From: Eledone cirrhosa
Taxonomy: Eukaryota
Assembly: GCA_964016885.1 (NCBI GenBank)
Contig: OZ024759.1
Location: 26,784,001 to 26,848,000, forward strand
DNA length: 64,000 nucleotides
Direction of reading: 5' to 3'
Both the position numbers and the translations under genes were made by a program. The notes under the pieces are model-generated. The model searched no databases. It was given only the letters and a program-made list of their open reading frames with translations, and had not been told where the DNA came from. Shown here piece by piece: positions 9,076 to 58,850 of this stretch (the stretch's first letter is position 1; the number at the start of each line of letters is the position of its first letter).

Positions 9076-9118
<43 letters not shown>

Positions 9119-12552: not shown

Positions 12553-12604
12553 GACTGTTGTAGGCTTATTTAGAATTTTTTCCATACCCGTAATACTTCT
12601 GTTA

Positions 12605-21215: not shown

Positions 21216-21266
<51 letters not shown>

Positions 21267-21666: not shown

Positions 21667-21702
<36 letters not shown>

Positions 21703-24405: not shown

Positions 24406-25102
24406 GTTGACCTATACTAAAGGACTTCACTGATAGGGTTATATGTGTTATAATTTCCCAGTTGACCTATACTAAAGGACTTCACTGATAGGGTTATATG
24501 TGTTATAGTTTCCCAGTTGACCTATACTAAAGGACTTCACTGATAGGGTTATATGTGTTATAGTTTCCCAGTTGACCTATACTAAAGGACTTCACTGATA
24601 GGGTTATATGTGTTATAATTTCCCAGTTGACCTATACTAAAGGACTTCACTGATAGGGTTATATGTGTTATAGTTTCCCAGTTGACCTATACTAAAGGAC
24701 TTCACTGATAGGGTTATATGTGTTATAGTTTCCCAGTTGACCTATACTAAAGGGCTTCACTGATAGAGTTATATGTGTTATAGTTTCCCAGAGGGCTTCA
24801 CTGATAGGGTTATATGTGTTATAGTTTCCCAGTTGACCTATACTAAAGGACTTCACTGATAGGGTTATATGTGTTATAGTTTCCCAGTTGACCTATACTA
24901 AAGGACTTCACTGATAGGGTTATATGTGTTATAGTTTCCCAGTTGACCTATACTAAAGGACTTCACTGATAGGGTTATATGTGTTATAGTTTCCCTGTTG
25001 ACCTATACTAAAGGACTTCACTGATGGGGTTATATGTGTTATAGTTTCCCAGTTGACCTATACTAAAGGGCTTCACTGATAGAGTTATATGTGTTATAGT
25101 TT
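24406..25102. repeat. 55-bp minisatellite, 12 full + 1 truncated units
   Basis: Same unit as at 12605. Confidence 0.95.
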
Positions 25103-28169: not shown

Positions 28170-28210
28170 GTGTGTATATACATAAACAAGACTGTTATTA
28201 CTCCAACCAG

Positions 28211-34200: not shown

Positions 34201-37200
34201 AGATGAAACGAGAGAGAGTGGAAACGAGAGTAGAGAGCGAGATGAAACAGGAGAGAGAGAGAGCGAGATGAAACGAGAGGGAGAGAGAGATGAAACGAGT
34301 GAGCGAGAGAGAGATGAAACGAGGGAGATAGAGATGAAACGAGAGAGAGGAAGAGAGAGATGGAACGAGAGAGAGGAAGACAGAGATGGAACGAGAGAGA
34401 GGAAGACAGAGATGAAACGAGAGAGAGAGAGAGCGAGATGAAACAGGAGAGAGAGAGCGAGATGAAACGAGAGGGAGAGAGAGATGAAAGGAGAGAGCGA
34501 GAGAGAGATGAAACAAGGGAGATAGAGATGAAACGAGAGAGAGGAAGAGAGAGATGGAACGAGAGAGAGGAAGAGAGAGATGGAACGAGAGAGAGGAAGA
34601 CAGAGATGAAACGAGAGAGCGAGATGAAACGAGAGAGAGAGAGAGCGAGAAGAAACGAGAGAGAGGAAGAGAGAGAGCGCCAGATGAAACTCTGTCATGT
34701 AATGTTATGGACATATCTGCCCTTGGGGCTAATAATTGTCATGTAATGTTATGGACATCTCTGCCCCTGTGGCTAATAACTCTGACATGTAATGTTATGG
34801 ACATCTCTGCCCCTGTGGCTAATAATTCTGAGAGAGATGAAACAAGTGAGGGATTAGAGAGAGATAAAACAAGTGAGGGATTAGAGTGTTGAAACAAGAG
34901 AGAGAGAGAGCGAGATGAAATGAGACAGGGAGAGCGAGATGAAACGCAATAGTGAGAGAAGCGAGATGAAACGAGAGAGTGAGAGCGAGATGAAACGAGA
35001 GAGAGAGAGAGCGAGATGAAACGAGACAGAGAGAGCGAGATGTAATGAGAGAGAGAGAGAGCGGGATGGAACGAGAAAGAGAGGAAACGAGAGTAGAGAG
35101 CGAGATGAAACGAGAGGGAGAGAGAGATGAAACGAGAGAGCGAGAGAGAGATGAAACGAGGGAGATAGAGATGAAATGAGAGAGAGGAAGAGAGAGAGGA
35201 AGAGAGAGATGGAACGAGAGAGAGTAAGACAGAGATAAAACGAGAGAGAGAGAGAGAGCGAGATGAAACGAGACAGAGAGAGCGCGAGATGAAACGAGAG
35301 AGAGAGAGCACGAGATGAAACGACAGAGAGAGAGACAGATGAAAGGAGGGAGATAGAGATAAAACGAGAGAGAGGATGAGAGAGATGGAACGAGAGAGAG
35401 GGAGAGAGAGATGGAACGAGAGAGAGGAAGACAGAGATGAAACGAGAGAGAGAGAGAGACAGATGAAAGGACGGAGATAGAGATGAAACGAGAGAGAGGA
35501 TGAGAGAGATGGAACGAGAGAGAGGAAGAGAGAGATGGAACGAGAGAGAGGAAGACAGAGATGAAACGAGAGAGAGAGCAAGATGAAACGAGAGAGAGAG
35601 AGCGCAAGATGAAACGAGAGAGAGAGAGCGCGAGATGAAACTCTGTCATGTAATGTTATTGACATATCTGCCCCTGTGGCTAATAATTGTCATGTAATGT
35701 TATGGTCATCTCTGCCCCTGTGGCTAATAATTCTGTCATGTAATGTTATGGACATCTCTGCCCTTGTGGCTAATAATTCTGACATGTAATGTTATGGTCA
35801 TCTCTGCCCCTGTGGCTAATAATTCTGAGAGATATTAAACAAGTGAGGGATTAGAGTGTTGAAACAAGAGAGAGAGAGCGAGAAGAAATGAGAGAGTGAG
35901 AGCGGGATGAAACGAGAGAGGGAGAGCGAGATGAAACGAGAGAGAGAGAGCGAGATGAAATGAGAGAGAGAGAGCGAGATGACACGGGAGGGAGAGAGAG
36001 ATGAAACGAGAGAGAGAGGAAACGAGAGAGAGAGGAAACGAGAGTAGAGAGCGAGATGAAACAAGAGAGAGAGAGAGCGAGATGAAACAGGAGAGAGAGA
36101 ACGAGATGAAATGAGAGGGAGAGAGAGATGAAACGAGAGAGCAGGAGAGAGATGAAACGAGAGAGAGGAAGAGAGAGATGGAACGAGAGAGAGGAAGACA
36201 GAGATGGAACGAGAGAGAGGAAGACAGAGATGAAACGAGAGAGAGAGAGTGAGATTAAACAGGAGAGAGAGAGCGAGATGAAACGAGAGGGAGAGAGAGA
36301 GATGAAACGAGAGAGCGAGAGAGAGATGAAACAAGGGAGATAGAGATGAAACGAGAGAGAGGAAGAGAGAGAGAGGAAGAGAGAGATGGCACGAGAGAGA
36401 GGAAGACAGAGATGAAACGAGAGAGAGAGAGCGAGATGAAACGAGAGAGAGAGAGCGCGACATGAAACGAGAGAGAGAGAGCGCGAGATGAAACGACAGA
36501 GAGCGAGACAGAGGAAAGAAGGGAGATAGAGATGAAACGAGAGAGAGGAAGAGAGAGATGGAACGAGAGAGAGGAAGAGAGAGATGGAACGAGAGAGAGG
36601 AAGACAGAGATGAAACGAGAGAGAAAGAGAGCGAGATGAAACGAGAGAGAGAGAGCGCAAGATGAAACGAGAGAGAGAGCGCGCGAGATTAAACGACAGA
36701 GAGAGAGACAGATGAAAGGAGGGAGATAGAGATGAAACGAGAGAGGGGATGAGAGAGATGGAACGAGAGAGAGGAAGAGAGAGATGGAACGAGAGAGAGG
36801 AAGACAGAGATGAAACGAGAGAGAGAGCAAGATGAAACGAGAGAGAGAGAGAGCGCAAGATGAAACGAGAGAGAGAGAGCGCAAGATGAAACGACAGAGA
36901 GAGAGACAGATGAAAGAAGGGAGATAGAGATGAAACGAGAGAGAGGAAGAAAGAGATGGAACGAGAGAGAGGAAGAGAGAGATGGAACGAGAGAGAGGAA
37001 GACAGAGATGAAACGAGAGAGAGAGCGAGATGAAACGAGAGAGAGGAAGACAGAGATGAAACGAGAGAGAGGGAGAGCGAGATGAAACGAGAGAGAGAGA
37101 GCGCAAGATGAAACTCTGTCATGTAATGTTATTGACATATCTGCCCCTGTGGCTAATAATTGTCATGTAATGTTATGGTCATCTCTGCCCCTGTGGCTAA

Positions 37201-37296
37201 TAATTCTGTCATGTAATGTTATGGAAATCTCTGCCCCTGTGGCTAATAATTCTGTCATGTAATGTTATGGACATCTCTGCCCCTGTGGCTAATAAA
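28211..37296. repeat. Left arm of modular satellite block: 8 GA-rich blocks alternating with 46-bp arrays
   Basis: 46-bp unit CATGTAATGTTATGGACATCTCTGCCCCTGTGGCTAATAATTCTGT. GA blocks at ~28449, 29503, 30458, 31227, 32240, 33883, 34830 and 35827 each begin ..GTGAGGGATTAGAGTGTTGAAACAAG and end GATGAAACTCTGTCATG. Confidence 0.93.
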
Positions 37297-40200
37297 TCAG
37301 AATTATTAGCCACAGGGGCAGAGATGTCCATAACATTACATGTCAGAATTATTAGCCACAGGGGCAGAGATGTCCATAACATTACATGTCAGAATTATTA
37401 GCCACAGGGGCAGAGATGTCCATAACATTACATGACAGATTTATTAGCCACAGGGGCAGAGATGTCCATAACATTACATGTCAGAATTATTAGCCATAGG
37501 GGCAGAGATGTCCATAACATTACATGACAGATTTATTAGCCACAGGGGCAGAGATGTCCATAACATTACATGTCAGATTTATTAGCCACAGGGGCAGAGA
37601 TGTCCATAACATTACATGTCAGAATTATTAGCCACAGGGGCAGAGATGTCCATAACATTACATGACAGATTTATTAGCCACAGGGGCAGAGATGTCCATA
37701 ACATTACATGACAGAATTATTAGCCACAGGGGCAGCGATGTCCATAACATTACATGACAGAATTATTAGCCACAGGGGCAGGGATTTCCATAACATTACA
37801 TGACAATTATTAGCCCCAGGGGCAGATATGTCCATAACATTACATGACAGACTTTCATCTCGCGCTCTCTCTCTCTCGTTTCATCTCGCGCTCTCTCTCT
37901 TCCTCTCTCTCGTTTCATCTTGCTCTCTCTCTCGTTTCATCTCGCGTTCTCTCTCTTCCTCTCTCTCGTTTCATCTCGCTCTCTCTCTCGTTTCATCTCT
38001 GTCTTCCTCTCTCTCGTTCCATCTCTCTCTTCCTCTCTCTCGTTCCATCTCTCTCTTCCTCTCTCTCGTTTTATCTCTCTCTCTCGTTTCATCTCTATCT
38101 CCCTCGTTTCATCTGTCTCTCTCTCTGTCGTTTCATCTCCCTCTATCTCTCTCTCGCTCTCTCGTTTCATCTCTCTCTCCCTCTCGTTTCATCTCGCTCT
38201 CTCTCTCCTGTTTCATCTCGCTCTCTCTCTCCTGTTTCATCTCGCTCTCTACTCTCGTTTCCTCTCTCTCGTATCCTCTCTCTCGTTTCCTCTCTCTCTC
38301 GTTTCCTCTCTCTCTCTCGTTTCCTCTAGCTCTCACTCTCTCGTTTCATCTCGCTCTCTCTCTCTCATTTCATCTCGCTCTCTCTCTCTCGTTTCATCTC
38401 GCTCTAATCTGTCTCGTTTCATTTCGCTCTCTCTCTCTCTCGTTTCATTTCGCTCTCTCTGTCTCGTTTCATCTCGCTCTCTCTCTCTCTCATTTCAACT
38501 CGCTCTCTCTCTCTCATTTCATCTCGCTCTCTCTCTCTCGTTTCATCTCGCTCTCACTCTCTCTTCCTCTCTCTCTCTTGTTTCAACACTCTAATCCCTC
38601 ACTTGTTTCATCTCTCTCTTATCCCTCACTTGTTTCATCTCTCTCAGAATTATTAGCCACAGGGGCAGAGATATCCATAACATTACATGTCAGAATTATT
38701 AGCCACAGGGGCAGAGATGTCCATAACATTACATGACAGATTTATTAGCCACAGGTGCAGAGATGTCCATAACATTACATGACGAATTTATTAGCCACAG
38801 GGGCAGAGATGTCCATAACATTACATGACAGAATTATTAGCCACAGGGGGCAGAGATGTCCATAACATTACATGACATAATTATTAGCCACAGGGGCAGA
38901 GATGTCCATAACATTACATGACAGAATTATTTGCCACAGGGGCAGAGATGTACATAACATTACATGACAATTATTAGCCCCAAGGGCAGATATGTCCATA
39001 ACATTACATGACAATTATTAGCCCCAAGGGCAGATATGTCCATAACATTACATGACAGACTTTCATCTCGCGCTCTCTCTCTTCCTCTCTCTCGTTTCAT
39101 CTCGCTCTCTCTCTCTCGTTTCATCTCGCGCTCTCTCTCTTCCTCTCTCTCGTTTCATCTCGCTCTCTCTCTCTCTCGTTTCATATCTGTCTTCCTCTCT
39201 CTCGGTCCATCTCTCTATTCCTCTCTCTCTCGTTTCATCTAGCTATCACTCTCTCGTTTCATCTCCCTCTATCTCTCTCTCGCTCTCTCGTTTCATCTCT
39301 CCCTCCCTCTCATTTCATCTCGCTCTCTCTCTCCGGTTTCATCTCGCTCTCTCTCTCTCCTGTTTCATCTTGCTCTCTACCCTCGTTTCCTCTCTCTCGT
39401 TTCCTCTCTCTCGTTTCCTCTCTCTCGTTTCCTCTCTCTCTCGTTTCCTCTCTCTCTCGTTTCATCTAGCTCTCACTCTCTCGTTTCATCTCGCTCTCTC
39501 TGACTCGTTCCATCTCGCTCTCACTCTCTCGTTTCATCTCGCTCTCTCTCTCTCATTTCATCTCGCTCTCTCTCTCTCATTTCATCTCGATCTCTCTGTC
39601 TCGTTTCATCCCGCTCTCTCTGTCTCGTTTCATCTCGCTCTCTCTCTCTCATTTCATCTCGCTCTCTCTCTCTCATTTCATCTCGCTCTCTCTCTCTCTC
39701 TCGTTTCATCTCACTCTCAATCTCTCATTTCATCTCGCTCTCTCTCATTTCATCTCGCGCTCTCTCTCTTCCTCTCTCTCGTTTCATCTCGCGCTCTCTC
39801 TCTTCCTCTCTCTCGTGTCATCTCGCTCTCGCTCTCTCTCTCGTTTCATCTTGCGCTCTCTCTCTTCCTCTCTCTCGTTTCATCTCGATCTCTCTCTGTC
39901 TCGTTTCATCTCTGTCTTCCTCTCGCTCGTTCCATCTCTCTCTTCCTCTCTCTCGTTCCAACTCTCTCTTCCTCTCTCTCGTTTCATCTCTCTCTCTCGT
40001 TTCATCTCTGTCTTCCTCTCTCTCGTTCCATCTCTCTCTTCCTCTCTCTCGTTCCATCTCTCTCTTCCTCTCTCTCGTTTCATCTCTCTCTCTCGTTTCA
40101 TCTCTATCTCCCGCGTTTCATCTGTCTCTCTCTCTGTCGTTTCATCTCCCTCTATCTCTCTCTCGCTCTCTCGTTTCATCTCTCTCTCCCTCTCGTTTCA

Positions 40201-42146
40201 TCTCGCTCTCTCTCTCCTGTTTCATCTCGCTCTCTCTCTCCTGTTTCATCTCGCTCTCTACTCTCGTTTCCTCTCTCTCGTTTCGTCTCTCTCGTTTCCT
40301 CTCTCTCTCGTTTCATCTAGCTCTCCCACTCTTGTTTCATCTCGCTCTCTCTGTCTCGTTTCATCTCGCTCTCACTCTCTCGTTTCATCTCGCTCTCTCT
40401 CTCTCATTTCATCTCGCTCTCTCTCTCTCATTTCATCTCGCTCTCTCTCTCTCTCGTTTCATCTCGCTCTCTCTGTCTCGTTTCATCTCGCTCTCGCTCT
40501 CTCTGTCTCGTTTCATCCCGCTCTCTCTGTCTCGTTTCATCTCGCTCTCTCTCTCTCATTTCATCTCGCTCTCTCTCTCTCATTTCATCTCGCTCTCTCT
40601 CTCTCTCTCGTTTCATCTCGCTCTCACTCTCTCATTTCATCTCGCTCTCTCTCGTTTGATTTCGCTCTCACTCTCTCTTCCTCTCTCTCTCTTGTTTCAA
40701 CACTCTAATCCCTCACTTGTTTCATCTCTCTCTAATCCCTCACTTGTTTCATCTCTCTCAGAATTATTAGCCACAGGGGCAGAGATGTCCATAACATTAC
40801 ATGTCAGAATTATTAGCCACAGGGGCAGAGATGTCCATAACATTACATGACAGATTTATTAGCCACAGGGGCAGAGATGTCCATAACATTACATGACGAA
40901 TTTATTAGCCACAGGGGCAGAGATGTCCATAACATTACATGTCAGAATTATTAGCTACAGGGGCAGAGATGTCCATAACATTACATGTCAGAATTATTAG
41001 CCACAGGGGCAGAGATGTCCATAACATTACATGACAGATTTATTAGCCACAGGGGCAGAGATGTCCGTAACATTAAATGACAGATTTATTAGCCACAGGG
41101 GCAGAGATTCCATAACATTACATGTCAGAATTATTAGCCACAGGGGCAGAGATTTCCATAACATTACTTGACAGAATTATTAGCCACAGGGGCAGAGATG
41201 TCCATAACATTACATGACAGAATTATTAGCCACAGGGGCAGAGATGTCCATAACATTACATGACAATTATTAGCCCCAGGGGCAGATATGTCCATGACAG
41301 AGTTTCATCTCTCGCTCTCTCTCTTCCTCTCTCTCGTTTCATCTCGCTCTCTCTCTCGTTTCATCTCGCTCTCTCTCTCTCTCGTTTCACCTCTGTCTTC
41401 TTCTCTCTCGTTTCATCTCTCTCTTCCTCTCTCTCGTTCTATCTCTCTCTTCCTCTCTCTCGTTTCATCTCTCTCTCTCGTTTCAACTCTATATCCCTCG
41501 TTTCATCTGTCTCTCTCTCTGTCGTTTCATTTCCCTCTATCTCTCTCTCGCTCTCTCGTTTCATCTCTCTCTCCCTCTCGTTTCATCTCGCTCTCTCTCT
41601 CCTGTTTCATCTCGCTCTCTCTCTCCTGTTTCATCTCGCTCTCTACTCACGTCTCCTCTCTCTCGTTTCCCCTCTTTCTCGTTTCATCTCTCTCTCGTTT
41701 CATCTCTCTATGTCTCATTTCATCTCGCTCTCTCTCTCTCTCATTTCATCTCGTTCTCTCTCTCTCTCATTTCATCTCGCTCTCACTCTCTCGTTTCATC
41801 TCGCTCTCTCACTCTCGTTTCATCTCGCACTCTCTCTCTCGTTTCATCTCTCTCTCTCTCTCATTTCATCTCGCTCTGTGTCTCGTGTCATCTCGCTCTC
41901 TCTGTCTCTCGTTTCATCTCGCTCTCACTCTCTCGTTTCATCTCACTCTAACTCTCTCATTTCATCTCGCTCTCCCTGTCTCGTTTCATCTCGCTCCCAC
42001 TCTCTCATTTCATCTCACTCTCTTTCTCTCATTTCATCTCGCTCTCTCGCTCTTGTTTCAACACTCTAATCCCTCACTTGTTTCATCTCTCTCTAATCCC
42101 TCACTTGTTTCATCTCTCTCTTGTTTCAATTCTTTCTCTCTCTCTC

Positions 42147-42199
<53 letters not shown>

Positions 42200-42520
42200 A
42201 TCCCCTCTCTCTTTCTCTCCCCTCTCTCTGTTGTTTCATCCCTCACCCTCTTGTTTCATCCCCTTCTCTCCCTCTCTCTCTCTTCCCCTCTATCTCTATT
42301 CCTCTCTCTCATCCCCTCTCTCTCTCTTCCTCTCTCTCTCTCTCTTCCTCTCTCCCCTCACCCTCTTGTTTCAACTCTCTCCTCGTTTCAACTCTCTCCT
42401 CGTTTCAACTCTCTCTCTCTCCTCTCGTTTCAACTCTCTCTCTCTCCTCGTGTTTCAACCATCTCCTCTCTTGTTTCAACTCTCTCACCTCTCGTTTCAA
42501 CTCTCTCTCTCTCTGTCTCC
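37297..42520. repeat. Right arm of modular satellite block, inverted: 3 CT-rich blocks alternating with reverse-complement 46-bp arrays
   Basis: CAGAATTATTAGCCACAGGGGCAGAGATGTCCATAACATTACATG units, with CT blocks at ~37851, 39059 and 41301. Confidence 0.93.
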
Positions 42521-43455: not shown

Positions 43456-44200
43456 GATGCCATGCATTGTATTGTACACTTCGACATATGAATTACGTTC
43501 ATGCAACACTTCTCTTATCATAGCCATTTTTTGTGGTGAGCAGTCATTATTTGTTGGTACTAGGGCAGTGGATTGGCAGTATCGGTAGAGCGCCAGACAC
43601 CATGCTTTACAGCATAGGGTTATGGCCATTTACGTTCTGGGTTCAAATCCCTCCAAGGTTGATTTGTTTTCATCCTTATGAGGTCGATAGAATAAAGTAC
43701 CAGTAATTGCTGGCCTTGTGCCAGAAACAATTATTTGGTTGTACTTCCAATCTGTGCTACATACCTTCGTTCCCATCAATAATATATAACTGGCCATATT
43801 GTGGTGTATTTTCTGCAGGTTACAGAGATGGGGGTGTAGTGATATGTTTGACCCTGAATATGAAAGCTATACGGGCCTCTGCCGGGTGGTAACACCAAAT
43901 GAAGTGAAATAAATGTAGTTTTAATTGCAGATGTTTCTGTGAAATCAACTGCTTCCTGGCCTCTTTCAAAGAGATTTCTCAGTCTCTCAGGGTATATTTG
44001 CAATGGTGGCAACACAACCTTTCCTTTATTACAACAGTTACAATTTTCATTTCTAAATTTCAAAGCTCCACAGTGATCACACGAAACATTCATATCACTA
44101 ATATGAAATTCTTCTACATTTCCATTAATATTAATTGTTGGCCAATTTCTCTTACAACGCTCATTATCCATTCTTCTCTGTCTGAATGTTTTCCATTCTG
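43456..44200 (-). mobile_element. Helitron N-terminal fragment (copy 4, with SINE)
   Basis: ORF 43776-44171 CDHCGALKF...GPYSFHIQGQTYH. It resumes at the same TGATGCCATG junction as copy 2. Confidence 0.88.
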
Positions 44201-45788
44201 TTGTTTATTATGTAATTAAATAGCTCTGTACAATACATAGAGCACTCTTCTTTTCTTTACCTTTTCTATGGAAATACAAGAACAAACATGTAAATATATA
44301 TATGTGTGTGTATATATATAAACAAGACTGTTATTGCTCCAACCAGTCTATTTACCTTTGATAACTATCCTAAATATAAATACACCTATACCATACATAC
44401 ATATATCATATATGTTTTTGATGCCGTGGTATAGCAGAGATAAGCAAGAAGAGAAAAGAAAATGAAAAGGAGAAAAAAAAAGAAGTAAGAAGTCGGGGGA
44501 GGGACAGACACTTCACCCCAGTCTAAGTGGTCCCTCAGCCGCAACCTGTGGAAGAAACGTAAAAGCGTTACCTCGGAGCAAGGCCAGAGACACCTGCTAC
44601 AATAGTCGCCCCTCCTCATGAGGCTCCTGTCATCTTTCCTCCCGACTTTATGGAGGAAATCAGCAGTACACGGACCAAGTATGGCAGAGGTCTCAATGGA
44701 GTGGAAGAGGTGAGTCAGGCCTTGGTACTATCTTACTATCCTCTGCATTGCGGGGTGTGGAGCCTAGGTTTGTGGCTGTAGCTATATTTGAACTTTTATA
44801 TGAAATTTCAGTTTTATATTATTCACATCATAAAACTTAATCTTAGTCTTTTGCAGCTCATCTTGTTTCATCTCGCAGCACACGATTTGGGAACCACTGC
44901 TCTAGAGATAGAAAAAGTATATTTTATGCAGGGCTTCCCTGAGACATAAAAACTATTTCAAGAGATCGACATGGGTAGAAAGGTTGAGAAATGCTGCACA
45001 ATGTTCTTTGGTTTTTGTTCACCTTTAAATAATCATGTATAAAATATCGGGTGTGCAAGATTTCATGAAAAGGTATAACATTATTTATGCTGGTCTTGCA
45101 GGGACTAGCTCCAATTGAGAGTTGTACCAATTCCCACTAAACTCGAAACTCCTGGACAATATATACATATCTTTATAAGTTCCTGTGTATTGTGTCGCTG
45201 TATAATGAAACATAAATATATACCATGCATGTCAGTCAGATTTGAACTCACTATATTTGGCGTTTTATAGATATAATTTGTTTGTTAAAACAATTGATTA
45301 AATAATAACTAAATAAAATTAATTCTACAATCCTGGATAGGGAATGAACTTATAACTTCATAATAGAAGCCATCTATTCGAGCAGTATTGCCATCTAAGC
45401 CACCAGGTTACTTACAGAACTTCATTCAAATATAAAATATAAAATATATGCCAGACATAGTGAGTTCGAATCTGACTGATTAGTTGGTCATTGTCCCAGC
45501 CAACAGTTTAAATCGCCAACCAGTAGGTGACATCGACTAGGTTGGGAAAACTTGGTTAAGTAGCTCCAGTTATTGCTACGTTAGACATATTCAAGACTTA
45601 TCGACACCGAATGGAAGAAAGGTAAAGTTGAACTCAGAGTAAAGAACTGGAAAAATACTGCAAAGAATTCTATCTGATGTTCTAACAATTCTACCAAATT
45701 ACCTTATGTATATATATTTATATCTAGAGATAAGAAGAAAACTGAAAGAAAGAAAAGAAAAAAAATGAGACCTTATATGTAACCCATG

Positions 45789-47030
45789 TTACAACTCAAT
45801 ATATATATATTTGGGTTGTAACATATTCCCGCCGGTGAAGTAAAAATTTTAATAGAAAAACGGCGGGAATATATGTTACAACCCAATCTATATATATTTG
45901 AGTTGTAACATATATTCCCGCCGTTGAAATAAAAATGTTAATAGAAAAACGGCGGGAATATATGTTACAATCCAATCTACATATATTTGGGTTGTAACAT
46001 ATATTCCCGCCGTTGAAATAAAAATTTTAATAGAAAAACGGCGGGAATATATGTTACAACCCAATCTATATATATTTGGGTTGTAACATATATTCCCGCC
46101 GTTTTTCTATTAAAATGTTTATTTCAACGGCGGGAATATATGTTACAACCCAAATATATGTAGATTGGGTTGTAACATATATTCCCGCCGTTTTTCTATT
46201 AAAATTTTTATTTCAACGGCGGGAATATATGTTACAACCCAAATATATATAGTTTCGTTGTAACATATATTCCCGCCGTTTTTCTATTAAAATTTTTATT
46301 TCAACGGCGGGAATATATGTTACAACCCAAATATATATAGATTGGGTTGTAACATATATTCCCGCCGTTTTTCTATTAAAATTTTTATTTCAACGGCGGG
46401 AATATATGTTACAACCCAAATATATGTAGTTTGGGTTGTAACATATATTCCCGCCGTTTTTCTATTAAAATTTTTATTTCAACGGTGGGAATATATGTTA
46501 CAACTCAAATATATATAGATAGGGTTGTAACATATATTCCCGCCGTTTTTCTATTAACATTTTTATTTCAACGGCGGGAATATATGTTACAACCCAAATA
46601 TATGTAGTTTGAGTTGTAACATATATTCCCGCCGTTTTTCTATTAAAATTTTTATTTCAACGGCGGGAATATATGTTACAACTCAAATATATATAGATAG
46701 GGTTGTAACATATATTCCCGCCGTTTTTCTATTAACATTTTTATTTCAACGGCGGGAATATATGTTACAACCCAAATATATATAGATTGGGTTGTAACAT
46801 ATATTCCCGCTGTTTTTCTATTAACATTTTTATTTCAACGGCGGGAAAGTATGTTACAACTCAAATATATATAGATTGGGTTGTAACATATATTCCCGCC
46901 GTTTTTCTATTAAAATATTTATTTCAACGGCGGGAATATATGTTACAACCCAAAAATATGTAGATTAGGTTGTAACATATATTCCCGCCGTTTTTCTATT
47001 AAAATTTTTATTTCAACGGCGGGAATATAT
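45789..47030. repeat. Array of ~14 x 89-bp palindromic (hairpin) units
   Basis: 28-bp arm AACGGCGGGAATATATGTTACAACCCAA, 11-nt loop, reverse-complement arm, 22-bp A/T spacer. Period checked at 45861 to 45950. Confidence 0.95.
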
Positions 47031-47050
47031 ACCCTGAGAGACTGAGAAAT

Positions 47051-47407
47051 CTCTTTCAAAGAGATTTCTCAGTCTCTCAGGGTATATTTGCAATGGTGGC
47101 AACACAACCTTTCCTTTATTACAACAGTTACAATTTTCATTTCTAAATTTCAAAGCTCCACAGTGATCACACGAAACATTCATATCACTAATATGAAATT
47201 CTTCTACATTTCCATTAATATTAATTGTTGGCCAATTTCTCTTACGACGCTCATTATCCATTCTTCTCAGTCTGAATGTTTTCCATTCTAAGTCTATTTG
47301 CATGGAATAATTATATTCTGTTGTTTATTATGTAATTAAATAGCTCTGTACAATACATAGAGCATTCTTCTTTTCTTTACCTTTTCTATGGAAATACAAG
47401 AACAAAC

Positions 47408-47441
<34 letters not shown>

Positions 47442-48917
47442 ATATACATAAACAAGGCTGTTATTGCTCCAACCAGTCTATTTACCTTTGATAACTATCC
47501 TAAATATAAATACACCTATACCATACATACATATATCATATATGTTTTTGATGCCGTGGTATAGCAGAGATAAGCAAGAAGAGAAAAGAAAATGAAAAGG
47601 AGAAAAAAAAGAAGTAAGAAGTCGGGGGAGGGACAGACACTTCACCCCAGTTTAAGTGGTCCCTCAGCCGCAACCTGTGGAAGAAACGTAAAAGCGTTAC
47701 CTCGGAGCAAGGCCAGAGACACCTGCTACAATAGTCGCCCCTCCTCATGAGGCTCCTGTCGTCTTTCCTCCCGACTTTATGGAGGAAATCAGCAGTACAG
47801 GGACCAAGTATGGCAGAGGTCTCAATGGAGTGGACGAGGTGAGTCAGGCCTTGGTACTATCTTACTATCCTCTGCATTGCGGGGTGTGGAGCCTAGGTTT
47901 GTGGCTGTAGCTATATTTGAACTTTTATATGAAATTTCAGTTTTATATTTTTCACATCATAAAACTTAATCTTAGTCTTTTGCAGCTCATCTTGTTTCAT
48001 CTCGCAGCACACGATTTGGGAACCACTGCTCTAGAGATAGAAAAAGTATATTTTATGCAGGGCTTCCCTGAGACATAAAAACTATTTCAAGAGATCGACA
48101 TGGGTAGAAAGGTTGAGAAATGCTGCACAATGTTCTTTGGTTTTTGTTCACCTTTAAATAATCATGTATAAAATATCGGGTGTGTAAGATTTCATGAAAA
48201 GGTATAACATTATTTATGCTGGTCTTGCAGGGACTAGCTCCAATTGAGAGTTGTACCAATTCCCACTAAACTCGAAACTCCTGGACAATATATACATATC
48301 TTTATAAGTTCCTGTGTATTGTGTCGCTGTATAATGAAACATAAATATATACCATGCATGTCAGTCAGATTTGAACTCACTATATTTGGCGTTTTATAGA
48401 CATAATTTGTTTGTTAAAACAATTGATTAAATAATAACTAAATAAAATTAATTCTACAATCCTGGATAGGGAATGAACTTATAACTTCATAATAGAAGCC
48501 ATCTATTCGAGCAGTATTGCCATCTAAGCCACCAGGTTACTTACAGAACTTCATTCAAATATAAAATATAAAATATATGCCAGACATAGTGAGTTCGAAT
48601 CTGACTGATTAGTTGGTCATTGTCCCAGCCAACAGTTTAAATCGCCAACCAGTAGGTGACATCGACTAGGTTGGGAAAACTTGGTTAAGTAGCTCCAGTT
48701 ATTGCTACGTTAGACATATTCAAGACTTATCGACACCGAATGGAAGAAAGGTAAAGTTGAACTCAGAGTAAAGAACTGGAAAGATACTGCAAAGAATTCT
48801 ATCTGATGTTCTAACAATTCTACCAAATTACCTTATGTATATATATTTATATCTAGAGATAAGAAGAAAACTGAAAGAAAGAAAAGAAAAAAAATGAGAC
48901 CTTATATGTAACCCATG
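47051..48917 (-). mobile_element. Truncated Helitron-unit fragment in 2.5-kb tandem repeat (also 49557-51435 and from 52075)
   Basis: Near-identical to 6093-7935. ORFs at 47013, 49519 and 52327 end recur with ~2506-2518 bp period. Confidence 0.9.
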
Positions 48918-49536
48918 TTACAACTCAATATATATATATTTGGGTTGTAACATATTCGCGCCGGTGAAGTAAAAATTTTAATAGAAAAACGGCGGGAATA
49001 TATGTTACAACCCAATCTATATATATTTGAGTTGTAACATATATTCCCGCCGTTGAAATAAAAATTTTAATAGAAAAACGGCGGGAATATATGTTACAAT
49101 CCAATCTACATATATTTGGGTTGTAACATATATTCCCGCCGTTGAAATAAAAATTTTAATAGAAAAACGGCGGGAATATATGTTACAACCCAATCTATAT
49201 ATATTTGGGTTGTAACATATATTCCCGCCGTTTTTCTATTAAAATGTTTATTTCAACGGCGGGAATATATGTTACAACCCAAATATATGTAGATTGGGTT
49301 GTAACATATATTCCCGCCGTTTTTCTATTAAAATTTTTATTTCAACGGCGGGAATATATGTTACAACCCAAATATATATAGTTTCGTTGTAACATATATT
49401 CCCGCCGTTTTTCTATTAAAATTTTTATTTCAACGGCAGGAATATATGTTACAACCCAAATATATATAGATTGGGTTGTAACATATATTCCCGCCGTTTT
49501 TCTATTAAAATTTTTATTTCAACGGCGGGAATATAT
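48918..49536. repeat. 89-bp palindromic array, ~7 units
   Basis: Same unit and junctions as 45789-47030. Confidence 0.95.
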
Positions 49537-49910
49537 ACCCTGAGAGACTGAGAAATCTCTTTCAAAGAGATTTCTCAGTCTCTCAGGGTATATTTGCAAT
49601 GGTGGCAACACAACCTTTCCTTTAGTACAACAGTTACAATTTTCATTTCTAAATTTCAAAGCTCCACAGTGATCACACGAAACATTCATATCACTAATAT
49701 GAAATTCTTCTACATTTCCATTAATATTAATTGTTGGCCAATTTCTCTTACGACGCTCATTATCCATTCTTCTCAGTCTGAATGTTTTCCATTCTAAGTC
49801 TATTTGCATGGAATAATTATATTCTGTTGTTTATTATGTAATTAAATAGCTCTGTACAATACATAGAGCATTCTTCTTTTCTTTACCTTTTCTATGGAAA
49901 TACAAGAACA

Positions 49911-49957
<47 letters not shown>

Positions 49958-51435
49958 ATATACATAAACAAGACTGTTATTGCTCCAACCAGTCTATTTA
50001 CCTTTCATAACTATCCTAAATATAAATACACCTATACCATACATACATATATCATATATGTTTTTGATGCCGTGGTATAGCAGAGATAAGCAAGAAGAGA
50101 AAAGAAAATGAAAAGGAGAAAAAAAAAAGAAGTAAGAAGTCGGGGGAGGGACAGACACTTCACCCCAGTCTAAGTGGTCCCTCAGCCGCAACCTGTGGAA
50201 GAAACGTAAAAGCGTTACCTCGGAGCAAGGCCAGAGACACCTGCTACAATAGTCGCCCCTCCTCATGAGGCTCCTGTCGTCTTTCCTCCCGACTTTATGG
50301 AGGAAATCAGCAGTACAGGGACCAAGTATGGCAGAGGTCTCAATGGAGTGGAAGAGGTGAGTCAGGCCTTGGTACTATCTTACTATCCTCTGCATTGCGG
50401 GGTGTGGAGCCTAGGTTTGTGGCTGTAGCTATATTTGAACTTTTATATGAAATTTCAGTTTTATTTTTTTCACATCATAAAACTTAATCTTAGTCTTTTG
50501 CAGCTCATCTTGTTTCATCTCGCAGCACACGATTTGGGAACCACTGCTCTAGAGATAGAAAAAGTATATTTTATGCAGGGCTTCCCTGAGACATAAAAAC
50601 TATTTCAAGAGATCGACATGGGTAGAAAGGTTGAGAAATGCTGCACAATGTTCTTTGGTTTTTGTTCACCTTTAAATAATCATGTATAAAATATCGGGTG
50701 TGCAAGATTTCATGAAAAGGTATAACATTATTTATGTTGATCTTGCAGGGACTAGCTCCAATTGAGAGTTGTACCAATTCCCACTAAACTCGAAACTCCT
50801 GGACAATATATACATATCTTTATAAGTTCCTGTGTATTGTGTCGTTGTATAATGAAACATAAATATATACCATGCATGTCAGTCAGATTTGAACTCACTA
50901 TATTTGGCGTTTTATAGATATAATTTGTTTGTTAAAACAATTGATTAAATAATAACTAAATAAAATTAATTCTACAATCCTGGATAGGGACTGAACTTAT
51001 AACTTCATAATAGAAGCCATCTATTCGAGCAGTATTGCCATCTAAGCCACCAGGTTACTTACGGAACTTCATTCAAATATAAAATATAAAATATATGCCA
51101 GACATAGTGAGTTCGAATCTGACTGATTAGTTGGTCATTGTTCCAGCCAACAGTTTAAATCGCCAACCAGTAGGTGACATCGACTAGGTTGGGAAAACTT
51201 GGTTAAGTAGCTCCAGTTATTGCTACGTTAGACATATTCAAGACTTATCGACACCGAATGGAAGAAAGGTAAAGTTGAACTCAGAGTAAAGAACTGGAAA
51301 AATACTGCAAAGAATTCTATCTGATGTTCTAACAATTCTACCAAATTACCTTATGTATATATATTTATATCTAGAGATAAGAAGAAAACTGAAAGAAAGA
51401 AAAGAAAAAAAATGAGTCCTTATATGTAACCCATG

Positions 51436-52054
51436 TTACAACTCAATATATATATATTTGGGTTGTAACATATTCCCGCCGGTGAAGTAAAAATTTTAAT
51501 AGAAAAACGGCGGGAATATATGTTACAACCCAATCTATATATATTTGAGTTGTAACATATATTCCCGCCGTTGAAATAAAAATGTTAATAGAAAAACGGC
51601 GGGAATATATGTTACAATCCAATCTACATATATTTGGGTTGTAACATATATTCCCGCCGTTGAAATAAAAATTTTAATAGAAAAACGGCGGGAATATATG
51701 TTACAACCCAATCTATATATATTTGGGTTGTAACATATATTCCCGCCGTTTTTCTATTAAAATGTTTATTTCAACGGCGGGAATATATGTTACAACCCAA
51801 ATATATGTAGATTGGGTTGTAACATATATTCCCGCCGTTTTTCTATTAAAATTTTTATTTCAACGGCGGGAATATATGTTACAACCCAAATATATATAGT
51901 TTCGTTGTAACATATATTCCCGCCGTTTTTCTATTAAAATTTTTATTTCAACGGCGGGAATATATGTTACAACCCAAATATATATAGATTGGGTTGTAAC
52001 ATATATTCCCGCCGTTTTTCTATTAAAATTTTTATTACAACGGCGGGAATATAT
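51436..52054. repeat. 89-bp palindromic array, ~7 units
   Basis: Same unit and junctions as 45789-47030. Confidence 0.95.
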
Positions 52055-52428
52055 ACCCTGAGAGACTGAGAAATCTCTTTCAAAGAGATTTCTCAGTCTC
52101 TCAGGGTATATTTGCAATGGTGGCAACACAACCTTTCCTTTAGTACAACAGTTACAATTTTCATTTCTAAATTTCAAAGCTCCACAGTGATCACACGAAA
52201 CATTCATATCACTAATATGAAATTCTTCTACATTTCCATTAATATTAATTGTTGGCCAATTTCTCTTACGACGCTCATTATCCATTCTTCTCAGTCTGAA
52301 TGTTTTCCATTCTAAGTCTATTTGCATGGAATAATTATATTCTGTTGTTTATTATGTAATTAAATAGCTCTGTACAATACATAGAGCATTCTTCTTTTCT
52401 TTACCTTTTCTATGGAAATACAAGAACA

Positions 52429-52481
<53 letters not shown>

Positions 52482-55029
52482 ATATACATAAACAAGACTG
52501 TTATTGCTCCAACCAGTCTATTTACCTTTGATAACTATCCTAAATATAAATACACCTATACCATACATACATATATCATATATGTTTTTGATGCCGTGGT
52601 ATAGCAGAGATAAGCAAGAAGAGAAAAGATAATGAAAATGAGAAAAAAAAAGAAGTAAGAAGTCGGGGGAGGGACAGACACTTCACTCCTGTCGTCTTTC
52701 CTGCCGACTTTATGGAGGAAATCAGCAGTACAGGGACCAAGTATGGCAGAGGTCTCAATGGAGTGGAAGAGGTGAGTCAGGCCTTGGTACTATCTTACTA
52801 TCCTTTGCATTGCGGGGTGTGGAGCCTAGGTTTGTGGCTGTAGCTATATTTGAATTTTTATATGAAATTTCAGTTTTATATTTTTCACATCTTAAAACTT
52901 AATCTTAGTCTTTTGCAGCTCATCTTGTTTCATCTCGCAGCACACGATTTGGGAACCACTGCTCTAGAGTTAGAAAAAGTATATTTTATGCAGGGCTTCC
53001 CTGAGACATAAAAACTATTTCAAGAGATCGACATGGGTAGAAAGGTTGAGAAATGCTGCACAATGTTCTTTGGTTTTTGTTCACCTTTAAATAATCATGT
53101 ATAAAATATCGGGTGTGCAAGATTTCATGAAAAGGTATAACATTATTTATGCTGATCTTGCAGGAACTAGCTCCAATTGAGAGTTGTACCAATTCCCACT
53201 AAACTCGAAACTCCTGGACAATATATACATATCTTTATAAGTTCCTGTGTATTGTGTCGTTGTATAATGAAACATAAATATATACCATGCATGTCAGTCA
53301 GATTTGAACTCACTATATTTGGCGTTTTATAGATATAATTTGTTTGTTAAAACAATTGATTAAATAATAACTAAATAAAATTAATTCTACAATCCTGGAT
53401 AGGGAATGAACTTATAACTTCATAATAGAAGCCATCTATTCGAGCAGTATTGCCATCTAAGCCACCAGGTTACTTACAGAACTTCATTCAAATATAAAAT
53501 ATAAAATATATGCCAGACATAGTGAGTTCGAATCTGACTGATTAGTTGGTCATTGTCCCAGCCAACAGTTTAAATCGCCAACCAGTAGGTGACATCGACT
53601 AGGTTGGGAAAACTTGGTTAAGTAGCTCCAATTATTGCTACGTTAGACATATTCAAGACTTATCGACACCGAATGGAAGAAAGGTAAAGTTGAACTCAGA
53701 GTAAAGAACTGGAAAAATACTGCAAAGAATTCTATCTGATGTTCTAACAATTCTACCAAATTACCTTATGTATATATATTTATATCTAGAGATAAGAAGA
53801 AAATGAGACCTTATATGTAACCCATGACCGGGATTGAAACCGAAACCAGGACTACCACCATCTCTGGTATCACCCACCAGACCACCATGAAAGATACAAA
53901 AATCTGCTTTTTTAATATTTATAAGCCTACTTTCAATATTAAAGTAATTAACATGTGGTGTTGTTCATGCCTTTCTCTATGTTATTGATAAAAAATAAAG
54001 TATTTAAACCTCAAATTTTGTTATTCAAATATGCTTGCTTATGTAATTATAAATGTCGCAGAATACACACACATATATAGATGTGAAAATATTCAGGACC
54101 CCAACGGCTGTGCTACTGCCGTTTCGACATCTATATATATATCTTTTAGTCCTAGGCTCTTTCAGCGCAGAAAGAATTCTCCAATGATCACAATCAGCTA
54201 ATGGTGCCCAGTGGAAGCACTTTAGTCTAATTATAACCCCAACGATCACGATTAGCGGCGGCTTTTTCGAGTCTGAGGTTGACTGCCAGATATATATATA
54301 TATATTTTTATACTTTGCTAGAATCCCGGAGAACAACAGAAAGATGCTGAGTTCAGAGTTTAAAAAACATGTCCCCTTTAATATAAAAACAATCCGAGTC
54401 TTGTAAAAGTGTTATTACTGTAATATAAAGTAGAAACCCTTTATTTAAACAAAGCTGCGATGCAGCGATCATCAAAGCAAACCCCAAAATGTAAACAAAC
54501 TTCTCGCAGGTGCTGCCAGATACACGATAACATGTGTATACGAAGTGTAACAGGGAGTTGGGTCGTATTATATGACTTTCAAATTGACCCCTATTATATT
54601 CAAATTATCCCCTGTGGGGCGTGCACCCCACGTTGAGAATCCCTCATAAATAAATATATGTGAGTGTGTTGCTATGACTGCTATTTCTAGCAGGTTTACT
54701 GCAGTCCTGTAGACGCACAACAAAAACCGGAAGTGGCAGCCATTAAAAAACTTTGGCTTAAAATCAGCCAAAAGATTTTCAATAATAGTAAAATTTTATT
54801 TTTGACAAGGACGATAACTTTTGTCTTACTTAATCGCAAAAATCGAGGCAAAAATTTTGAGGGTGTGCAGTTTACACGCTAAAAATAAACCTGCTAGAAA
54901 TAGCAGTCATAGCAACTCACTTACATATATTTATATATCATATATATATATATATGATATATATATGGACACTTTAGAAATAGCAGCGAATAACAGAAAG
55001 GACACACACACACACACATATATATATAT

Positions 55030-55076
<47 letters not shown>

Positions 55077-55488
55077 TATATATATATGCCCCAGCATACA
55101 CACACACACACACATATATATACATATATATATGCCCCAGCATGGTCTTGGACGATCGTCTAACTAAGGCCAATAATAAAATACTTCAAAATAAATTAAA
55201 CACTACTAAATCCGGGGTTACAACTTGGATTACTTAAAAGTCAGTAAAGCTGTAAAGATTCTATATTGTAAATAGGTGGTCGCATGTTCGAATCCGGGCA
55301 AATCCCGAGAAAAATAACAAAAAGAAGGACAATGTAAAAATAGCAGCCATAGACGAGAGGAGGACACACACACAAACACACACACATGTATATATATATA
55401 TATGTGTGTCTGTGTATGTGTTTGGCTGCTATATATATATATAGCGGTCAACACACACACACGTACATATATAAGTGTGTGTGTTTGG

Positions 55489-55522
<34 letters not shown>

Positions 55523-56658
55523 ATATAAATATATGTGAGTTGCTATGACTGCTATTTCTAGCAGGTTTATTTTAGCGTGTAAACTGCACACCCGCAAAAT
55601 TTTTGCCTCGATTTTTGCGATTAAGTAAGACAAAAGTTATCGTCCTTGTCAAAAATAAAATTTTACTATTATTGAAAATCTTTTGGCTGATTTTAAGCCA
55701 AAGTTTTTTAATGGCTGCCACTTCCGGTTTTTGTTGTGCGTCTACAGGACAGCCATAAACCTACTAGAAATAGCAGTCATAACAACACACTTATGTATAT
55801 TTATATATCAGGGATTCTCAACGAAGGGTACACGCCCCACAGGGGGCAATTTGAATTTAATAGGGGCCAATTAGAAAGTGATATAATACGATCAAACTTC
55901 CAGTTACACTTTGTTCACATGTTATCCTGTATCTGGCAGCAGCTACGAGAAGTTTGTTTATATTTTGAAGTTTGTTTTGATCATCGCGGCATCGTAGCTT
56001 TGTTTAATTAAAGCATTTCTACTTTATATTACAGTAGTAACACTTTTACAAGACTCGGTTTATTTCTATATTAAAAGGGAACATAAACCTAATTTTTAAA
56101 CGTTGAGGTGGGGCATGGAGCAAAAAAGGTTTGGAACTACTGAAGACAACGAATCATCGTTTTTATTAATGTAAACAAACTTCTCGCAGGTGCTGCCAGA
56201 TACACGATAACATGTGTATACGAAGTGTAACAGGGAGTTGGGTCGTATTATATGACTTTCAAATTGACCCCTATTATATTCAAATTATCCCCTGTGGGGC
56301 GTGCACCCCACGTTGAGAATCCCTCATAAATAAATATATGTGAGTGTGTTGCTATGACTGCTATTTCTAGCAGGTTTACTGCAGTCCTGTAGGCGCACAA
56401 CAAAAACCGGAAGTGGCAGCCATTAAAAAACTTTGGCTTAAAATCAGGCAAAAGTTTTTTAACAATTTGCCAAGAAAGATAACTCTTGTCTTACTTAATC
56501 GCAAAAATCGAGGCAAAAATTTTGCGGGTGTGCAGTTTGTTTGGTGTATTTGACTGCTATTTCTAGCATATATGGACACTTTAGAAATAGCAGCGAAACA
56601 CGGGAAACATAAGAAAGAAGGTCACACACGTATATATATATATATATAATTATGTATC

Positions 56659-56689
<31 letters not shown>

Positions 56690-58208
56690 GCACAGATATA
56701 TACATTTAAATATATATATTTATATATACATACACGCGCGCACACACACCTATACGTAGATATTGGTGTGTGTATAGCTGGTATATATATATATGTATGG
56801 GTGAGTGTATAGCTGGTATATATATATATATAGGTGTGTGTCCTTCTTTCTGCTGTTTTCCGTTTTTCGCTGCTATTTCTAAAGTGTCCATACATGCTAG
56901 AAATAGCAGTCATAGAAACACACTCACATATATTTATTTATGAGGGATTCTCAACGTGGGGTGCACGCCCCACAGGGGATAATTTGAATATCCCCCTCTT
57001 TATATCAATTAGCACTAACTCTCTCCCTCTCTATATCTATTACACGGCACTCTCTTCCAATACCCCTCTCTATATGAAGTAACACCAAACTCTCCCCCTC
57101 TCTATATATTAAGCACTAAGTCAGGAATTTTTTTCTTCTTTCGTGCAGAGAGAGTAAAGTTGATTAAATCTACTGCAGTGAATTACTGGTATTTTATTTA
57201 ATAAAAATTAAAATTTACTATTTGTCTTCGTTTAATTTTCGTTTTTCTTTACATAGTTTCGTTTCGTTAAATGTCTCCAGAATTTGTTTTTACTTTTACC
57301 GGATATTGAAGGTGTAAACTTGGTGTTGTCTAGAAACGTGTTAGAAATATTTTTCTTTTAATTGTGAAGAATTTAACCGCAAAGTAAGTTTTTTTTACTG
57401 TTTATTTGTGGCTGGGACAACGTATGGTATGTGTTAATGTAAATGGTGAAGGTTTAAAGATTCTTTTTACAACTGAAAATCGGTTTGTTGTTGCTGCTAA
57501 TTACTTAACGCATGGAATAGATTAAAAAAATACAGGATTGTTTCTCGGAAGAGAGGAAGAAGAAACAAATCACAGAAGCGGGTAGCACACACATTTGGGA
57601 CCACATACAACACAAAAACAGGTAATCCACACATCTGGGACCACATACAACACACCAGCAGGTAATACATACATCTAGGACCACATAAGCAGGTAATACA
57701 CACATCTAGGACCACATACAACACACAAGCAGGTAATACCCACATCTAGGACGACATACAACCAAAGGCAGGCGAAAGGGGTGGACAAACGAGCTGCTAC
57801 TAGATCAAAAGATAACAGTATCGCGAGGAGCACTGGGAAACCTCTCTAATGATTTTTTAGGCAAGCCAGCACGTCTGCAGCGTTACCTCGGGCGATGGCG
57901 AGGCTGAGGAGCTGGAACAACCAAGTGCCCTCACGAGCTTCACCAGTCACCTTCGTCAGGCTAGCCGCCAGTGAAGATAGGAATCTCGCAGTCAGTATCC
58001 CGACTCCCCCAAACGCCACAGGCTGGAAAATGTAGTTGGCCGACAGATCACAGTATTACTTAACAGTGATAGATATTCTGTCTAAAGGAGGGGCGTACAA
58101 CAGGCGGCCCGCGGGCCACAATCGAGCCCACCTGACCAGTCAGAGTGGCCCGCAATGACTCTTGTAGGCTTATTTAGAATTTTTTCCATACCCGTAATAC
58201 TTCTGTTA

Positions 58209-58850
58209 GTTGACCTATACTAAAGGACTTCACTGATAGGGTTATATGTGTTATAATTTCCCAGTTGACCTATACTAAAGGACTTCACTGATAGGGTTAT
58301 ATGTGTTATAGTTTCCCAGTTGACCTATACTAAAGGACTTCACTGATAGGGTTATATGTGTTATAGTTTCCCAGTTGACCTATACTAAAGGACTTCACTG
58401 ATAGGGTTATATGTGTTATAATTTCCCAGTTGACCTATACTAAAGGACTTCACTGATAGGGTTATATGTGTTATAGTTTCCCAGTTGACCTATACTAAAG
58501 GGCTTCACTGATAGAGTTATATGTGTTATAGTTTCCCAGAGGGCTTCACTGATAGGGTTATATGTGTTATAGTTTCCCAGTTGACCTATACTAAATGACT
58601 TCACTGATAGGGTTATATGTGTTATAGTTTCCCAGTTGACCTATACTAAAGGACTTCACTGATAGGGTTATATGTGTTATAGTTTCCCAGTTGACCTATA
58701 CTAAAGGACTTCACTGATAGGGTTATATGTGTTATAGTTTCCCAGTTGACCTATACTAAAGGACTTCACTGATAGGGTTATATGTGTTATAGTTTCCCAG
58801 TTGACCTATACTAAAGGGCTTCACTGATAGAGTTATATGTGTTATAGTTT
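58209..58850. repeat. 55-bp minisatellite, 11 full + 1 truncated units
   Basis: Same unit as at 12605. Confidence 0.95.

What the first reader, a model, noticed from the sequence alone, without database searches (positions are those of the whole stretch)
45789..52054. 89-bp hairpin satellite that is itself folded into a larger palindrome, amplified three times with a Helitron fragment
Seen: each unit has 28-bp inverted arms, an 11-nt loop and a 22-bp A/T spacer. In all three arrays the spacer reads GAAATAAAAATTTTAATAGAAA for the first three units and then switches to its reverse complement (centre ~46070, ~49200, ~51715). This gives a ~0.55-kb palindrome made of palindromes. Copy number is ~14, 7 and 7, with the variation right of the flip. 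The unit occurs nowhere else in the window. Inference: cruciform-forming repeats like this resemble iterated rolling-circle/rolling-hairpin origins or fold-back transposon termini, and may have driven the local 2.5-kb amplification. I do not recognise the family.
Basis: partly seen in the sequence, partly recalled or inferred. Interest (0 to 1): 0.72.

Follow-up and report, generated by a model that had tools for sequence, protein, structure and literature searches.

The report
Satellite built from folded-back mariner MITE
The hairpin repeat is a chain of copies of one tiny dead jumping gene (a 78-base mariner remnant found scattered across this animal genome), likely stitched together by DNA-copying slips at a single rearrangement and then likely copied passively to its 88 sites inside a much larger repeat.

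Summary
Each unit is a whole 78-bp mariner MITE (28-bp terminal repeat, 22-bp interior, 28-bp terminal repeat) plus an 11-nt remnant of its TA target. The MITE is dispersed (213 exact terminal-repeat hits; 44 solo copies examined), and 1.3-kb-class mariner elements with the same ends exist here. The array occurs 88 times on three chromosomes, inside a 10-15-kb Helitron-fragment macrosatellite. All 88 share the same two junctions and exactly one flip, so they descend from one event; no donor array exists elsewhere in the assembly. A rolling hairpin predicts alternating units, which never occur. Two unrelated solo MITEs show an arm copied back across the TA tract with shared private changes. This supports fold-back copying, then slippage, a second strand switch, and unequal exchange between 1.85-kb direct repeats. 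Whole-MITE tandem arrays are already described in corals. Verdict: a new variant of a known kind, useful as a fossil series of satellite birth.

The parts
45786..47030 (.). MITE array 1: 14 units of 89 bp, 3 left-oriented then 11 right-oriented
48915..49536 (.). MITE array 2: 7 units, 3 left then 4 right
51433..52054 (.). MITE array 3: 7 units, 3 left then 4 right
45987..46064 (+). One complete 78-bp mariner MITE: 28-bp terminal repeat, 22-bp interior, 28-bp terminal repeat; the two arms are identical
   Evidence: aligns to both ends of full-length mariners L111, L112, L114, L151; solo copies
46065..46075 (.).
   Evidence: TA on both sides of 34 of 44 solo copies
45786..46355 (.). 0.57-kb palindrome of array 1 (same structure at 48915-49484 and 51433-52002)
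   Evidence: 94.8% over 574 columns; perfect for 41 bp each side of the centre linker
45778..45793 (.). Left founding junction: 3-nt microhomology to the outer half of a terminal repeat, inside a 6-bp mini-hairpin; also at 48915 and 51433
   Evidence: comparison with intact copies at 7933 and 19996; fold; 88 genome copies
47027..47087 (.). Right founding junction: 30-bp-arm fold-back grown from a pre-existing 6-bp inverted repeat in the Helitron fragment, joined to the array by a 4-nt microhomology; also 49533-49593 and 52051-52111
   Evidence: 86 exact-pattern genome copies; raw-read depth
47051..48917 (.). Segment B, a 1.85-kb direct repeat flanking every array (other copies about 43961-45788, 49557-51435, 52075-53820; array-free copy 6093-7933)
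   Evidence: 0.6-1.1% substitutions between five copies
47051..47324 (-). Truncated piece of a decayed Helitron-like reading frame inside B (longer form at 5908-6366)
   Evidence: ORF list; the same macro-unit carries a Pif1 2B domain at 25675-26076, E 4e-13; atlas lead to Helitron_like_N at score 0.89, a lead only

Best explanation
The 89-bp unit is a whole 78-bp mariner-derived MITE plus 11 bases of its TA target, and all 88 arrays share the same two junctions and one flip; the array likely arose by replication or repair strand-switching and was likely multiplied passively afterwards. Shown: MITE identity, related full-length mariner, shared junctions, single flip, no donor array in the assembly. 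Inferred steps: (1) a new strand that had copied a solo MITE folded back in the self-complementary (TA)n flank and re-copied the arm, making arm-linker-arm with identical arms; (2) slippage between the now directly repeated arms built a short tandem; (3) a second switch at an inverted arm mirrored it, giving the single flip; (4) this tract was joined by microhomology and a 30-bp snap-back at the junction of a 1.85-kb tandem duplication in a Helitron-fragment macrosatellite; (5) unequal exchange between the 1.85-kb repeats, between units and between macro-units gave the present copy numbers. No function is implied.
For: Dispersed solo elements of 72-81 bp, TA on both sides in 34 of 44. 213 exact terminal-repeat 17-mers, control 0. 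Same 28-bp ends on elements of 1,272-2,813 bp, with HTH_48 E 1.9e-12 and Transposase_1 over cut-off, a Mos1 match at E 2.1e-21 and D34D spacing in L151. 87 of 87 parsed arrays have both junctions and one flip; the 88th also has one flip. All 746 genome-wide spacer matches fall in the 88 arrays. Both tail-to-head junctions listed outside the arrays (L143, L144) are perfect inverted copies of the adjacent arm, 31 and 18 bp long, each sharing 2 private changes; L071 carries a 45-bp perfect inverted copy of its right end. Array arms share a derived base that 0 of 44 solo copies carry on both arms. The right junction extends a pre-existing 6-bp inverted repeat.
Against: The founding solo MITE was not found: the nearest solo interior differs by 5 edits and a donor pattern gave 0 hits. 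The mirror-variant test is weak: 5 arm variants are shared between halves in mirror register against 4 in direct register, so inversion and inverted duplication are not cleanly separated. Arm mismatch across the linker (mean 1.07) and across the interior (1.38, inflated by 7 mis-parsed ends) does not discriminate. The fold-back intermediates are 2-3 loci from one assembly, not checked in reads. Nine of the solo loci were picked for carrying the derived base on one arm. The order of steps 1-4 is inferred; the 88 arrays are one event, not 88 tests.
Confidence: 0.66

Rival explanations
1. Double insertion: two MITEs transposed into the same TA tract, and the dimer expanded by unequal exchange, with a later inversion between inverted arms.
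For: An established route to transposon tandems (PMC5932611, abstract and section 5 read). 28 of 44 solo copies abut at least three TA repeats, so repeated targeting is plausible.
Against: Independent insertions should differ in arms and interiors, yet the array has one interior type and identical consensus arms. Neither tail-to-head junction listed outside the arrays is two whole elements; both are mirror copies of one arm.
Confidence: 0.14
2. Rolling-circle copying of an excised MITE circle, or of a truncated Helitron circle, made the tandem and the 2.5-kb repeats.
For: Arrays are near-integer numbers of units that start and end at about the same point in the arm. Circle routes are proposed for Bari1 and Helitron arrays (PMC9659126 passages; PMC12628747 section).
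Against: A circle gives no flip and would keep two unlike arms. The left junction does not regenerate a 5'-TC start on the Helitron strand (sequence; the TC rule is recalled). Most runs hold one array (48 of 64).
Confidence: 0.1
3. One reading: the hairpins act as rolling-hairpin or cruciform origins that drive the local 2.5-kb amplification.
For: Either register is predicted to fold at about -32 kcal/mol as single-stranded DNA, and array 2 at -306. Both junctions are fold-backs, and every array lies in amplified DNA.
Against: No alternating orientation in 88 of 88 arrays. Junctions are the same in all arrays, so no new array-made breakpoints were seen. Array-free macro-units are amplified too (C25 14.67-14.73 Mb, no terminal repeat found). 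Other fold-backs in the window lack the MITE.
Confidence: 0.07
4. The arrays or the flip are an assembly or library artefact.
For: Palindromes can yield fold-back reads, and many of the raw reads laid are chimeric at restriction sites.
Against: Arrays carry lineage-specific variants on three chromosomes. Units with matching linker variants and the junction appear in raw reads of three other samples.
Confidence: 0.03

Closest known systems
Made1, the human Hsmar1-derived MITE (PMC1784062, passages read)
   Same: About 80 bp, almost all terminal repeat, derived from a ~1.3-kb mariner, a near-perfect palindrome
   Different: 28-bp repeats with a 22-24-bp interior rather than 37 and 6 bp; a different family; here one copy became a tandem array; no evidence here for microRNA production
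CMITE tandem arrays of Acropora corals (PMC2872659, passages read)
   Same: Tandem arrays of full-size MITEs with similar linkers, attributed to slippage rather than transposition
   Different: CMITEs are piggyBac/TTAA elements; the passages read do not mention an internal flip, arm homogenisation or capture in a macrosatellite
Angel MITE fold-back model of Izsvak et al. 1999 (seen only as summarised in review PMC12628747)
   Same: The new strand folds back after the element and re-copies it, giving a two-copy stem-loop that inserts by local homology
   Different: Here the turn is in the (TA)n flank, partial intermediates are visible in the genome, and the product went on to a tandem array
Xstir and miDNA4 MITE-derived satellites of Xenopus (via reviews)
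   Same: Satellite born from a MITE; miDNA4 is Tc1/mariner
   Different: Their monomers are internal parts of the MITE; here the monomer is the whole element plus target remnant
ODIRA and MMBIR-type template-switch junctions (PMC10766186, passages read)
   Same: An inverted junction at a pre-existing 5-6-bp inverted repeat, with microhomology joins
   Different: Here the 6-bp repeats are 1 base apart, not 40-80; the inverted piece is about 30 bp; no origin was tested; the product is a direct duplication with an insert, not an inverted triplication

Membership tests
MITE (non-autonomous class II element) | Short, non-coding, with terminal inverted repeats | tested here: met
   44 distinct elements of 72-81 bp with 28-bp ends, from 50 partly overlapping loci scanned
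MITE (non-autonomous class II element) | Dispersed, many copies of uniform size | tested here: met
   213 exact 17-mer hits, control 0; 114 exact 24-mer hits, the 100 listed spread over many contigs; 30 of 44 are 79-80 bp
Tc1/mariner MITE | TA flanking both ends | tested here: met
   34 of 44 solo copies; array linkers are TA-rich but lack a clean TA beside the arms except on one side of the first linker
Tc1/mariner MITE | Target duplication proven by an empty orthologous site | not testable with these tools
   No related genome is held
Tc1/mariner MITE | Shares ends with a transposase-coding element of the same genome | tested here: met
   L111, L112, L114 and L151 carry the same 28-bp ends, and the MITE interior aligns to their subterminal bases
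mariner (DD34D) transposon, for the parent | WVPHEL and YSPDL motifs, D34D spacing, Mos1-type HTH | tested here: met
   Motifs in L111, L112, L151; 34 residues between the second and third aspartate in L151, the 1 of 3 copies in which the pattern matched; HTH_48; Mos1 E 2.1e-21
mariner (DD34D) transposon, for the parent | An intact, active transposase copy | tested here: inconclusive
   L111 is in several broken frames; five long copies are 86-93% alike, which suggests an old family; the other copies were not checked for an open frame
Named Dfam or Repbase family; mariner subfamily | Match to a curated consensus | not testable with these tools
   No such library is on hand
Rolling-hairpin replication product | Alternating head-to-head and tail-to-tail units | tested here: not met
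   One flip in 88 of 88 arrays
Helitron, for the host macro-unit | Pif1-type helicase and Rep-region remnants | tested here: inconclusive
   Pif1_2B_dom E 4.4e-13; atlas lead to Helitron_like_N at 0.89, 35% of members; no Pfam Rep hit among the 6 Helitron-like pieces scanned
Helitron, for the host macro-unit | 5'-TC and 3'-CTRR ends with a subterminal hairpin | tested here: inconclusive
   CTAG motifs near 3620-3660 on the minus strand without a clear hairpin; 5' end not located
Known RNA family | Reaches an Rfam gathering score | tested here: not met
   Best hit in the arrays 54.6 bits against a gathering score of 80

The most novel reading that the evidence does not exclude
This MITE family, sitting in self-complementary (TA)n tracts, repeatedly triggers snap-back copying without any transposase, so one genome preserves the whole series from solo element to fold-back dimer to tandem to mirrored array; and the two halves of the 0.57-kb palindrome still correct each other, as hinted by variants on both sides at matching distances (48T>C at 1/1 in 5 C20 arrays).
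Probability: 0.3. Interest if true: 0.6.

Novelty: new variant of a known kind. Interest (0 to 1): 0.36.

Why it matters
How a dispersed transposon turns into a satellite is usually argued from end products. Here the related full-length mariner, solo MITEs, likely fold-back intermediates with shared private changes and the finished array with its founding junctions all lie in one assembly. That makes the Angel fold-back model countable against double insertion. The 88 descendants of one event also mark the history of a macrosatellite spread over three chromosomes. It is not a new replication system, and nothing here points to a host function.

Tried and rejected
Rfam scan: only sub-threshold microRNA hits to hairpins; no tRNA. 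Search for the unit elsewhere in the window: only TA-run or <=15-bp matches. The 30 best HTH_48 loci were mostly other mariners: 1 of 30 carried this terminal repeat. L064/L113, first taken for a 1.46-kb element, is two solo MITEs. Donor search with the first-linker pattern: 0 hits. No solo MITE in 110 kb of array-free or edge macro-units on C25. Mirror-versus-direct variant control and linker-versus-interior arm symmetry were inconclusive. No RNA holder listed. A run under a second organism label holds the tandem unit, but its contigs showed only the intact Helitron side of the junction, which proves nothing. Earlier-findings look-ups by place and by sequence returned nothing. Paper searches listed no description of this family, but none used an organism name, and Dfam and Repbase were unavailable.
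Full report
Observation. The larger palindrome aligns at 94.8% over 574 columns. The region has 275 close 20-mer inverted pairs against 0 in 20 of 20 shuffles, and the unit is absent from the rest of the window. Raw reads from three samples of one other study show direct-unit joints with the same linker variants (143, 234 and 36 reads), opposite-strand joints at the arm start (30, 43 and 4) that I read as the flip centre, and depth across the right junction. Library fold-back could add to the opposite-strand count.

What the unit is. A 21-base arm pattern hit 1,012 places in the 3.0-Gb genome; nine of the 100 listed lay outside arrays. All nine are solo elements of the form arm, interior, arm, mostly set in TA or (TA)n. 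Among 44 distinct short elements from 50 partly overlapping loci, lengths are 72-81 bp, 34 have TA on both sides and 28 abut at least three TA repeats. An exact 17-mer of the family end occurs 213 times, control 0.

The parent. The same 28-bp ends bound elements of 1,272, 1,483, 1,572 and 2,813 bp. L111 encodes broken frames with HTH_48 at E 1.9e-12 and Transposase_1 over its cut-off, matching Mos1 transposase at E 2.1e-21. L151 shows 34 residues between the second and third catalytic aspartates (the pattern matched 1 of 3 copies tried). Five long copies are 86-93% alike, which suggests an old family. The MITE aligns to the two ends of the parent, as expected of an internal deletion; the architecture recalls human Made1 (PMC1784062, passages) and deletion-born MITEs of the mosquito (PMC3814204, abstract).

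The setting. The window is part of a macrosatellite of roughly 10-15-kb units with decayed Helitron-like frames. Locally the order is B-array-B-array-B-array-B, where B is a 1.85-kb segment whose copies differ by 0.6-1.1% and which also occurs without an array at 6093-7933. The left join uses a 3-base microhomology inside a 6-bp mini-hairpin. The right join is a 30-bp-arm fold-back grown from a pre-existing 6-bp inverted repeat and attached by a 4-base microhomology. Inverted junctions at short inverted repeats are the signature of template-switch models (PMC10766186, passages), though the spacing here is 1 base rather than 40-80.

Census. The left junction occurs 88 times, on C18, C20 and C25 only. 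I fetched all 88. Eighty-seven of 87 parsed together have both junctions and exactly one flip, with 2-5 left and 2-12 right units, 755 units in all; the 88th reads five left, three right with a one-base variant of the right junction. All 746 genome-wide matches to the array interior at up to two mismatches fall in these arrays (739 + 7), so the assembly holds no donor array. The 86 right junctions listed form 64 runs: 48 single, 11 pairs, 4 triples and 1 of four. The arrays are descendants of one event.

Mechanism. A rolling hairpin would alternate orientation, which never occurs. Double insertion (PMC5932611, abstract and section 5) would give unlike arms and interiors. The array instead has identical consensus arms that share a derived base carried on both arms by 0 of 44 solo copies (nine loci were picked for having it on one arm). 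A tail-to-head search gave 211 junctions; 204 lie in the 87 arrays, and the two listed outside arrays are on C2 and C7 (the listing stops at C20, so a few on later contigs were not seen). Both are perfect mirror copies of the adjacent arm across a pure TA tract, 31 and 18 bp long, each sharing two private changes, and L071 has a 45-bp perfect inverted copy of its end. This fits a new strand folding back in self-complementary (TA)n, as in the Angel model (seen through review PMC12628747, part 1 of 2 of its mechanisms section). After such a fold-back the first and third arms are direct repeats 89 bp apart, and slippage gives a tandem with identical arms (inference). Because linkers right of the flip are reverse complements of those on the left, a second switch must have inverted or mirrored an existing tandem. 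Some variants sit on both sides at similar distances, but the control is weak, 5 mirror against 4 direct, so inversion and inverted duplication remain unresolved. Later growth needs only unequal exchange between B copies and between units (established knowledge).

Did the hairpins drive amplification? They are not needed. Array-free macro-units are tandem on C25, and the window has other fold-backs without the MITE: a 446-bp inverted repeat at 8653-9686 and a satellite block that reverses at about 37296. The hairpins are predicted to be stable as single strands, so a contribution to local fragility is not excluded.

Comparison and verdict. Tandem arrays of full-size MITEs are described for coral CMITEs (PMC2872659, passages), and MITE-derived satellites for Xenopus, rye, ants and bivalves (PMC9659126, passages). 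What differs here is a whole mariner MITE as monomer, homogenised arms, one conserved flip, capture at a template-switch junction and visible fold-back intermediates. I read no supplements; they are unlikely to bear on the main claim. Identity as a mariner MITE array: about 0.95. The mechanism as stated: 0.66. New variant of a known kind, interest 0.36.

Noticed in passing
window 28200-42500, centre about 37296: A block of 46-bp repeats alternating with AG-rich tracts reverses orientation at about 37296, a roughly 14-kb fold-back without any MITE.
   Followed up: partly
window 8653-9686; related at 20555-23108 and 54369-56912: A 446-bp inverted repeat, 97% complementary, around a 142-nt TA-rich centre; related inverted copies recur in other macro-units.
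   Followed up: partly
G000 C25 26.46-29.09 Mb: The macrosatellite itself switches strand between 28.01 and 28.63 Mb and ends within 0.3 Mb of the contig end, a megabase-scale inverted arrangement.
   Followed up: no
G000 C25 14.67-14.73 Mb (L213-L219): A separate run of macro-units about 13 kb apart with no MITE end at all, a candidate pre-insertion state.
   Followed up: partly
L115 1712-1906 (C12): A direct tandem duplication of a solo MITE with 35 bp of flank, an independent seed for a tandem array.
   Followed up: no
L036 3943-4045 (C3): A solo MITE whose right end is followed by an extra partial arm carrying the left-arm base, suggesting a switch between arms.
   Followed up: partly
L111, about 2216-2435: A roughly 200-bp insert in this mariner copy is itself a high-copy dispersed repeat with many 95-100% matches.
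   Followed up: no
window 59-2056: Broken non-LTR retrotransposon reverse-transcriptase frames just left of the macrosatellite edge (RVT_1 hits).
   Followed up: partly
window 13227-13592 (also 25358, 59106): A partial PHD-finger-like piece next to the helicase remnant in the macro-unit, below the Pfam cut-off.
   Followed up: no
window 12604-12971, 24405-25102, 58208-58850: A 55-bp tandem repeat of variable copy number (about 7, 13, 12) in each macro-unit.
   Followed up: no
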